Below are positions 2,939 through 3,405 of a stretch of DNA of 64,000 nt, in pieces; position 1 is the first letter of the stretch; the number at the start of each line of letters is the position of its first letter. The stretch spans positions 1,760,001 through 1,824,000 of the forward strand of contig OX638351.1 in the NCBI GenBank assembly GCA_951813565.1, in the 5' to 3' direction. A program made the position numbers and the translations under genes. The notes beneath the pieces are model-generated. The model searched no databases. It saw only the letters and a list, made by a program, of their open reading frames with translations, and had not been told where the DNA came from. The DNA is from an uncultured Poribacteria bacterium. Its GTDB lineage: Bacteria; Poribacteria; WGA-4E; WGA-3G.

Positions 2939-3405
2939 CTCAAGTTGCTACCTACAAGATAATTGACATAAAAAACACCTTTTTAATCGGATAGTTCACT
3001 ATCAGCATAGATTTTGTAGCACGGGGAATGCCATTAAGGCATTCATACCGTTGATAGCACTTTCAGTTTGCGCCCTTATGACACAAACTAAATGAAGATT
3101 AATTTTTTAATTCGGTAATTTCTTGTTAGGTATATTCTGAATATGTCAAACGCTCTTCAGTCCCGACAAATGCCATACGGGGAATGTCAAAAGGCATTCA
3201 TACCGTTGATTTGGCGCATTTGGCGTTGATTTGGTAGGGACGGAATGTTTATAGCAAGAGGTGTTATCTCTTCTCTTAGTCCCGTAGGGACGATATATCC
3301 TTGCAGCACATGGCAACAAACATATCGTCCCTACGGGACTAAGGAAAATACCGAATTTATTTTTTAATCTTCATAAAGTTTGTGCTACATAGGTAGCAAC
3401 TTAGG
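2939..3405. repeat. Nested composite repeat (TIR element > REPs > second TIR element > micro-elements)
   Basis: Outer TIR CTCAAGTTGCTACCT / AGGTAGCAACTTAGG flanked by TATTTTAA; inner TIR element 3093-3373 (TGAAGATTAA...TTAATCTTCA) flanked by TAAA. Confidence 0.75.

What the first reader, a model, noticed from the sequence alone, without database searches (positions are those of the whole stretch)
3022..3233. Self-targeting ~34-36 bp hairpin micro-elements ending in CGTTGAT that stack inside REPs and each other
Seen: a recurrent unit = hairpin (GAATGCC..GGCATTC or CAAATGC..GCATTTG) plus a CGTTGAT(T) or CATGATT end, at 3022-3055, 3165-3233 (second copy 3178-3213 in its loop), 11001-11035, 13690-13790, 15830-15863, 16220-16293, 31735-31792 (nested inverted copy), 50986-51019, 53373-53406 and 61849-61883. 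Filled/empty comparisons exist within the window: AGTCCC|GTAGGGACG is intact at 3278 but interrupted at 3165 and 53373; the 16737 repeat lacks the insert its homolog has at 50986. Nested copies show no TSD; two isolated copies have 4-bp flanking repeats (AGCA, TAGG). Established: TTGAT is the ISDra2 (IS200/IS605, HUH) target motif and HUH enzymes recognise hairpins. Inference: a very small non-autonomous mobile element family, perhaps moved as ssDNA by an HUH/RAYT-like enzyme.
Basis: partly seen in the sequence, partly recalled or inferred. Interest (0 to 1): 0.8.

Follow-up and report, generated by a model that had tools for sequence, protein, structure and literature searches.

The report
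Tiny mobile hairpin-plus-tail DNA, Poribacteria
A 34-36-base DNA hairpin with a short fixed tail has been pasted hundreds of times into other repeats, into itself and rarely into genes in one family of sponge-symbiont bacteria, and none of the usual jumping-gene enzymes tracks with it, so how such a small piece of DNA moves is still open.

Summary
Real. The unit is a hairpin followed by TTGAT plus three bases (34-36 nt). This genome holds about 580-660 copies; it occurs in 39 of 39 other genomes of the genus and 0 of 16 genomes of other families. Ends are fixed, the stem covaries, and orthologous empty sites show exact 36-base insertions. The major form inserts at C|G without duplication (33 of 39 flank classes precise). 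Other forms bring an extra C and mostly lose 1-5 target bases (12 of 39 precise). 574 of 598 copies sit in other repeats, so much of the copy number is passive. The ISDra2 link fails: TTGAT lies inside the unit and targets lack it. The two claimed duplications could not be confirmed. No enzyme tracks the element: one single-contig genome with 164 units shows no Y1 transposase and no reverse transcriptase. Best reading: a single-stranded hairpin module moved in trans by a nicking, strand-transfer enzyme; a RAYT is the leading named candidate but unproven. Closest known: Nostoc small dispersed repeats and REPINs. This scan has already noted the family at least eight times in this genome, and similar tiny units elsewhere.

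The parts
3023..3058 (+). 36-nt unit with an atypical 3-base ending, inside a host repeat (about 2930-3130) that has 7 copies in the genome, all carrying the unit
3165..3233 (+). outer unit inserted exactly at a C|G step of a REP-like hairpin; split by the inner unit
3179..3213 (+). inner 35-nt unit inserted at the C|G step in the loop of the outer unit
3270..3350 (.). empty host REP doublet; the unfilled C|G step is at 3283|3284
2940..3410 (.). composite intergenic insert (about 430 bp, short inverted termini) that carries the three units above; absent at the orthologous site in G054 and G052, replaced by another repeat with its own unit in G014
10960..11063 (+). three-level stack: outer unit, middle unit 10974-11043 in its loop, inner unit 11001-11035 just upstream of the middle unit's TTGAT
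13690..13790 (-). unit 13690-13723 plus a stack that includes a short-tail (type 2) insert
15831..15866 (+). 36-nt unit with an atypical ending; no empty homologue found
16220..16293 (+). partial stack of three tails with a type 2 remnant
31735..31792 (+). unit carrying an inverted short-tail (type 2) hairpin at 31742-31769
50986..51019 (+). 34-nt unit, minor junction class: homologous empty repeats have two other bases where the unit's leading C stands
53373..53406 (-). 34-nt unit, exact insertion at the same host C|G step as 3165
61849..61883 (+). 35-nt unit at a C|C step of a REP; same host site as 31735

Best explanation
A non-autonomous mobile module of 34-36 nt: a stem of about 11 bp and an 8-9-base unpaired tail. 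SHOWN: fixed ends, a stem kept by compensatory changes, exact insertion at C|G for the major form, loss of 1-5 target bases plus an added C for most minor forms, and strong residence in other repeats. INFERRED: (1) it moves as one folded strand; a protein binds the hairpin and tail; (2) a nicking, strand-transfer enzyme supplied in trans joins the hairpin foot to a nick in the target; (3) the tail end is joined exactly when the target offers C|G, and otherwise is finished by repair or a replication template switch that trims the target; (4) each insertion leaves a new C|G at its upstream edge, so units stack head to tail, and deletions between tails swap hairpins while the site keeps its first ending, which explains why the last three bases follow the host site; (5) most copies were multiplied passively inside REP and MITE-like hosts. 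The leading named enzyme is a RAYT-type Y1 HUH protein (about 0.3 on its own); an enzyme of another or unknown class is as likely.
For: Boundary scan: joined flanks recur as empty sites for 242 of 515 units at one register, and at most 29 off the diagonal. Exact 36-base gap in 5 of 5 orthologues of a unique gene, and 2 filled against 5 empty homologues of an IS-like gene. Major ending: C before in 88 and G after in 89 of 97 flank classes; 33 of 39 classes with a found empty site are exact, against 12 of 39 for other endings. Six of 10 stem pairs exceed all 500 shuffles among 178 distinct cores; covariation 0.331 against 0.148 shuffled, slid controls at most 0.124 (24 units picked for variety). 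Units fold with z of -2.9 to -4.0 (6 single-unit folds). Hosts are the repeats that flank RAYT genes across the order. Eight of the 39 minor classes replace the TA of a host's C|TAC step, and C|T is the TnpA-REP cut site (PMC8266576). REPIN excision products are hairpins with a single-stranded 5' tail (PMC3116915), the same shape as the tail-first strand here.
Against: No Y1 match in G023 (one contig, 92% complete, 164 units, with a run of 7 identical units), G001 (82 units) or G010 (120 units). RAYTs are common in families where the element was not found. No gene recurs beside units in 181 loci, including low-copy genomes. The REP guide tetranucleotide is missing. Units with an A-T pair at the foot still sit mostly at C|G sites (15 of 25 loci from relatives), so the foot does not program the target. 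HUH transfer is normally exact, yet 27 of 39 minor classes are not. Chosen C|G steps are no more or less paired than other CG steps in the same repeats (67 against 134). No intermediate was seen.
Confidence: 0.55

Rival explanations
1. No dedicated enzyme: replication template switching between hairpins copies the unit into other hairpins, and gene conversion among repeats spreads it.
For: Two-ended palindromic versions, some with the palindrome running into the flanks, show that template switching acts on these units. 574 of 598 copies lie in repeats. No enzyme family tracks the element.
Against: Exact insertions into unique coding DNA with no homology to the unit. One register across 97 flank classes. 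An invariant tail and covarying stem across genera imply recognition.
Confidence: 0.15
2. A host nuclease (restriction, repair or structure-specific) opens C|G steps or hairpins, and repair captures a free oligonucleotide form of the unit, as was suggested for SDR5 at HIP1.
For: Minor junctions show small deletions and variable last bases. A core host enzyme would fit the family-wide spread. Directed cutting was proposed for SDR5 (PMC4390886).
Against: It does not say what makes the free unit or why its ends are fixed. Only some CG steps of a host are used, each in one orientation. No candidate nuclease was tested.
Confidence: 0.14
3. The unit moves through a small RNA copied by a reverse transcriptase, with target priming and untemplated bases at the tail end.
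For: One fixed end and one variable end. G000 has an RT beside cas1 and a Drt4 RT.
Against: No RT match in 45 of 91 family genomes, among them G017, G023, G049, G006, G048 and G012 with 164-493 units. The major ending is constant.
Confidence: 0.07
4. A mini-element of the IS200/IS605 family moved by TnpA, with TTGAT as an ISDra2-like site.
For: No duplication, a hairpin near the end, and active IS605 elements in G000.
Against: TTGAT is internal and targets lack it. There is one hairpin, not two ends. No target tetranucleotide. TnpA is absent from G017, G023 and G005 (300, 164, 121 units) and has 27 matches in G068 (0 units). The genome's IS605 ends do not resemble the unit.
Confidence: 0.04
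5. A site-specific recombinase (tyrosine, IS607 serine or IS110) or Cas1-Cas2 integrates it.
For: No duplication; unit length overlaps the CRISPR spacer lengths of 34-41; an IS607 and one tyrosine recombinase are present.
Against: No IS110 in G000. The tyrosine recombinase is in 18 of 28 genus genomes, 0 of 21 of g9, and not in G023. No unit in the three CRISPR arrays. 34 bp is too short for a double-stranded circle (own knowledge). IS607 and Cas1 were not profiled across genomes.
Confidence: 0.05

Closest known systems
Small dispersed repeats SDR1-8 of Nostocaceae (Elhai et al. 2008, Genome Res 18:1484, PMC2527708; not held; seen only through PMC4390886 and PMC5861425)
   Same: Very small dispersed modules; SDR5 inserts precisely within a short CG-containing palindrome. 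Recalled, not read: conserved folds, nesting in themselves and in other repeats, unknown mover.
   Different: Another phylum; SDR-like repeats were reported not found outside Nostocaceae among HIP1-rich cyanobacteria. Recalled lengths are 21-27 nt against 34-36 here. The target is C|G, not an octamer. Sequence relation not tested.
REP / REPIN / BIME with RAYT (TnpA-REP) (PMC3116915, PMC3333891, PMC8266576; passages read)
   Same: Extragenic hairpins at hundreds of copies, compensatory stem changes, tandem arrays, dinucleotide sites after C, and an excised form shaped as hairpin plus single-stranded tail.
   Different: A single hairpin, not a doublet; no REP guide tetranucleotide; does not bracket a RAYT gene; it sits inside the REPs; present in genomes with no Y1 gene found.
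IS200/IS605 elements (ISDra2, IS608) and their coding-free PATE derivatives (PMC8612924, PMC5934647, PMC10055086; passages read)
   Same: No target duplication; hairpin 8-10 bases from one end.
   Different: One hairpin only; TTGAT internal; no tetranucleotide target or guide rule; minor junctions inexact; no link to TnpA content.

Membership tests
IS200/IS605 (ISDra2-type) mini-element / PATE | Inserts 3' of a fixed tetra- or pentanucleotide that stays outside the element | tested here: not met
   TTGAT is inside the unit; only C before and G after are conserved in 97 flank classes (rule)
IS200/IS605 (ISDra2-type) mini-element / PATE | Separate left and right ends, each with hairpin and guide | tested here: not met
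   One hairpin per unit
IS200/IS605 (ISDra2-type) mini-element / PATE | Ends shared with an autonomous element in the genome | tested here: not met
   Ends of 18 IS families inspected; none carries the hairpin-plus-tail unit
IS200/IS605 (ISDra2-type) mini-element / PATE | No target duplication | tested here: met
   33 of 39 major classes exact; exact gaps in orthologues
IS200/IS605 (ISDra2-type) mini-element / PATE | Insertion biased to the lagging-strand template | not tested
   No result
REP/REPIN with RAYT | Conserved guide tetranucleotide 5' of the hairpin | tested here: not met
   Consensus lacks it on both strands; a change at the foot does not change the target
REP/REPIN with RAYT | Copies bracket a RAYT gene | tested here: not met
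   RAYT flanks carry the host REPs; units appear there only as single inserts (2 of 5 RAYT-like loci in G000; 30 loci printed, part of that output cut)
REP/REPIN with RAYT | Mobile unit is an inverted doublet | tested here: not met
   Single units insert alone; 446 of 505 arrays are singles; two-ended forms are a minority
REP/REPIN with RAYT | High-copy extragenic hairpin with compensatory changes | tested here: met
REP/REPIN with RAYT | Bound and nicked by the cognate RAYT | not testable with these tools
   Needs biochemistry
SDR-like very small mobile repeats (kind; features partly recalled) | Dispersed unit under about 40 nt with fixed ends and filled/empty alleles | tested here: met
SDR-like very small mobile repeats (kind; features partly recalled) | Nests in itself and in other repeats; conserved fold | tested here: met
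SDR-like very small mobile repeats (kind; features partly recalled) | Sequence or fold homology to SDR1-8 | not testable with these tools
   Paper not held
Classical MITE (DDE-mobilised) | Terminal inverted repeats matching an IS, plus target duplication | tested here: not met
   Asymmetric unit, no duplication, no IS with matching ends

The most novel reading that the evidence does not exclude
The unit belongs to a class of mobile DNA under 40 nt that is moved by machinery outside the known transposase families, either a core host enzyme or an undescribed nuclease. G023 carries 164 units and a run of 7 identical copies with no Y1 transposase, reverse transcriptase or the genus's tyrosine recombinase found. 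The two junction modes (exact at C|G, trimmed elsewhere) would be the footprint of one-ended strand transfer finished by repair.
Probability: 0.3. Interest if true: 0.85.

Novelty: new variant of a known kind. Interest (0 to 1): 0.55.

Why it matters
How repeats under 40 bases spread has been an open question since the Nostoc small dispersed repeats were described. This family gives thousands of junctions in more than 80 genomes, natural stem variants, clean empty alleles and genomes that lack the usual suspects, so candidate enzymes can be tested on 35-base oligonucleotides. An enzyme that pastes a short folded strand at C|G without a scar would also be of practical interest. The family itself is not new to this scan.

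Tried and rejected
Guide at the hairpin foot programs the target: rejected. Target chosen by pairing state: no difference. Ending programs the target: better explained by founder events plus array turnover, since one site carries several hairpin types with one ending and some sites carry several endings; not formally excluded. Autonomous parent with the same ends: none among multi-copy families. Hidden Y1 gene in G000: a profile of 37 local Y1 proteins found only the 10 known loci. Gene recurring beside units: none. IS110: none. IS91 Y2: none, but the control rang nowhere, so uninformative. Cas1 capture: no unit in arrays. Viral contigs: 28 matches, none with the stem by eye, read as chance. 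Rfam on 2800-17000: 6 weak matches, none near gathering score, none on a unit. Public runs: only assembled contigs, broken at repeats; the joints that skip units can come from paralogous empty repeats, so they show neither excision nor strain differences. One search used a pattern that excluded the main unit and only shows the short-tail type. Literature searches found no description of this family; the library lacks most subscription papers.

Full report
1. Observation. The two hairpin patterns occur 6 and 3 times in the window against 0.01 and 0.04 by chance. The window lies in a single-contig genome of 5.43 Mb. A genome census gave 538 hairpin-plus-tail matches on both strands against 3 on one strand of the reversed genome, 515 canonical units, 578 with a wider pattern and 660 with a loose folding filter that includes some noise. 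Three further places in the window belong to the family (30447, 38178, 47430).

2. Anatomy. Read with the tail last, a unit is a stem of about 11 bp with a 4-5-base loop, then TTGAT and three more bases; 34-36 nt in all. The inner stem and TTGAT are nearly invariant; the lower stem varies. Among 178 distinct cores of the 34-nt type, 6 of 10 pairs are paired more often than in any of 500 shuffles. On 24 units picked for variety, 6 of 10 pairs change on both sides, with covariation 0.331 against 0.148 shuffled and at most 0.124 when partners are slid; relatedness inflates such scores, and the set was not random. Both strands fold about equally, so the active strand is unknown. A second type with a shortened tail sits inverted inside the arms of the first and replaces a few host bases. 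Some units have a tail at both ends, at times with the palindrome running into the flanks, a sign of template switching.

3. Ends and targets. Joining the flanks reproduces a sequence found elsewhere in the genome for 242 of 515 units at one register, 205 at the equivalent one-base shift, and at most 29 off that diagonal. After merging tandem units, 505 arrays fall into 213 flank classes. In the 97 classes with the major ending (TTG), C precedes in 88 and G follows in 89. Where an empty homologue was found (78 of 213 classes), 33 of 39 major classes are exact insertions without duplication; of 39 classes with other endings 12 are exact and 27 show an added C with 1-5 target bases lost. Eight of these 27 replace the TA of a host C|TAC step. 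In G023, units follow a G of the host, which shows that the leading C can come with the unit. In genus g9 the tail is one base shorter and about two target bases are lost, judged by eye against host repeats. Host repeats are polymorphic, so some apparent losses may reflect host variants.

4. Orthologues. A 36-nt unit inside a unique ORF of G000 is an exact gap in 5 of 5 relatives, one of which shows the C|G step; a unit in an IS-like gene is present in 2 and absent from 5 of 7 homologous copies. At the finding's own site the whole intergenic insert of about 430 bp is missing in G054 and G052, and G014 has another repeat with its own unit (3 of 29 fetched orthologous loci aligned). The 3022 unit is shared by all 7 copies of its host repeat, so the claimed duplication rests on one event with no empty site.

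5. Where copies sit. 574 of 598 units have repeated flanks. Long ORFs cover 66% of the genome but hold 11 of 660 matches, 3 of them real units by eye. Many hosts are the REPs that flank RAYT genes throughout the order. Copy number therefore mixes true insertion with passive spread of composites. Stacks are consistent with growth at the C|G step that each insertion leaves upstream (inference).

6. Distribution. Found in 39 of 39 other genomes of the genus (7-493 copies), 43 of 44 of g9 (many with 1-3 matches, near chance; up to 82), 1 of 1 of g18, 1 of 2 of g10; g11 and g12 have 0-1 matches. Not found in 16 genomes of three other families. The 28 viral matches lack the stem.

7. Search for the mover. 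G000 has 10 Y1 loci: five IS605 TnpA, three RAYTs over the NCBIfam cut-off and two others; a local profile found no more. The IS605 TnpA query hits 52 of 91 family genomes and runs against the element: none in G017, G023, G005; 27 in G068, which has no unit. The RAYT model hits 83 of 91 (59 over cut-off), and a RAYT query hits 8 of 11 and 20 of 29 genomes of families f2 and f3. Pfam Y1 found nothing in G023, G001, G010 or G076 and one gene in G017; these are 92-97% complete, and recent loss or passing visits of the enzyme remain possible. RTs occur in 46 of 91 and are missing from several of the richest genomes. The single tyrosine recombinase does not track either. Kin are not independent, so these are contrasts, not statistics. 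No gene recurs beside units. Ends of 18 IS families do not match.

8. The ISDra2 lead. ISDra2 integrates 3' of a TTGAT target (PMC8612924, passages), and IS608 picks its target by pairing with a guide at the hairpin foot (PMC5934647, passages). Here TTGAT travels with the unit, targets share only C|G, and a changed foot pair does not change the target (15 of 25 loci from relatives still end before G). The match to TTGAT is best read as coincidence.

9. Mechanism. Shown: fixed ends, selected stem, two junction modes, nesting, family-wide spread. Inferred: movement as a folded strand by a nicking, strand-transfer enzyme in trans, with the hairpin foot joined first and the tail end either joined exactly or finished by repair (0.55). 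TnpA-REP cuts after C in dinucleotides and can use more than one (PMC8266576, passages); BIME models allow varied ends and tandem growth (PMC3333891, passages); REPIN excision products are hairpins with a 5' tail (PMC3116915, passages and first part of section 10). These make a RAYT the leading named candidate (about 0.3), but the missing guide, the missing gene linkage and the Y1-free genomes keep it unproven. Rivals: enzyme-free template switching (0.15), host nuclease plus repair capture (0.14), RT (0.07), recombinase or Cas1 (0.05), IS605 TnpA (0.04). Strand bias against replication was not measured.

10. Comparison and novelty. The closest kind is the Nostoc small dispersed repeats. The paper is not held; I saw only citing passages (PMC4390886, PMC5861425) and a reference entry (PMC2884548), and the rest is recalled. 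The lead came from earlier scan notes. Coding-free IS605 derivatives are known as PATEs (PMC10055086, passage), but the unit fails their tests. Searches found no account of this family; no supplements were read. Earlier notes describe the same family at least eight times in this genome (24 notes fit the look-up, 8 shown), and tiny nested units in other genomes (unchecked).

11. Verdict. Real, mobile and mechanistically open; a new variant of a known but poorly understood kind. Interest 0.55.

Noticed in passing
G000 228254-230012, 2158613-2160373, 4319133-4320896, 2036476 and about 25 TnpB-only copies: IS605 family in which two target tetranucleotides occur, each with the guide base at the hairpin foot that the IS608 pairing rule predicts: a natural case of guide-target covariation.
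   Followed up: partly
G000 3988991-3992061 (L242, L244): A group II-like reverse transcriptase gene lies next to cas1 and a 54-repeat CRISPR array; a candidate RNA spacer acquisition locus.
   Followed up: partly
G000 811749-813284 (L241): Antiviral reverse transcriptase Drt4, over the NCBIfam cut-off.
   Followed up: partly
G000 4771354-4771977 (L245): The only tyrosine recombinase match in the genome is a 206-residue protein, 78-95% identical in 18 of 28 genus genomes and not found in g9; no full-length XerC/XerD was found by this search.
   Followed up: partly
window 2940-3410: MITE-like composite with short inverted termini between an oxidoreductase gene and an EPSP-synthase-family (murA-like) gene; absent in two relatives.
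   Followed up: partly
G000 1460146, 1541558, 4893899, 5224435: Fully palindromic two-tailed units whose symmetry extends 2-4 bases into the flanks.
   Followed up: partly
L372 (G023 1044373-1044617): Seven identical 35-nt units head to tail in a genome with no Y1 or RT gene found.
   Followed up: partly
window 24251-25237: Eight copies of a 102-base (34-codon) repeat inside the ORF 24090-25424; family not tested.
   Followed up: no
window 9276-10595, 22649-23527, 43476-44599: Copies of multi-copy IS families: ISKra4-like, IS1595-like and a split IS630-like element, named from representatives elsewhere in the genome.
   Followed up: partly
window 35880-36070: Proline/glutamate-rich tandem repeats in the ORF 35215-37002.
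   Followed up: no
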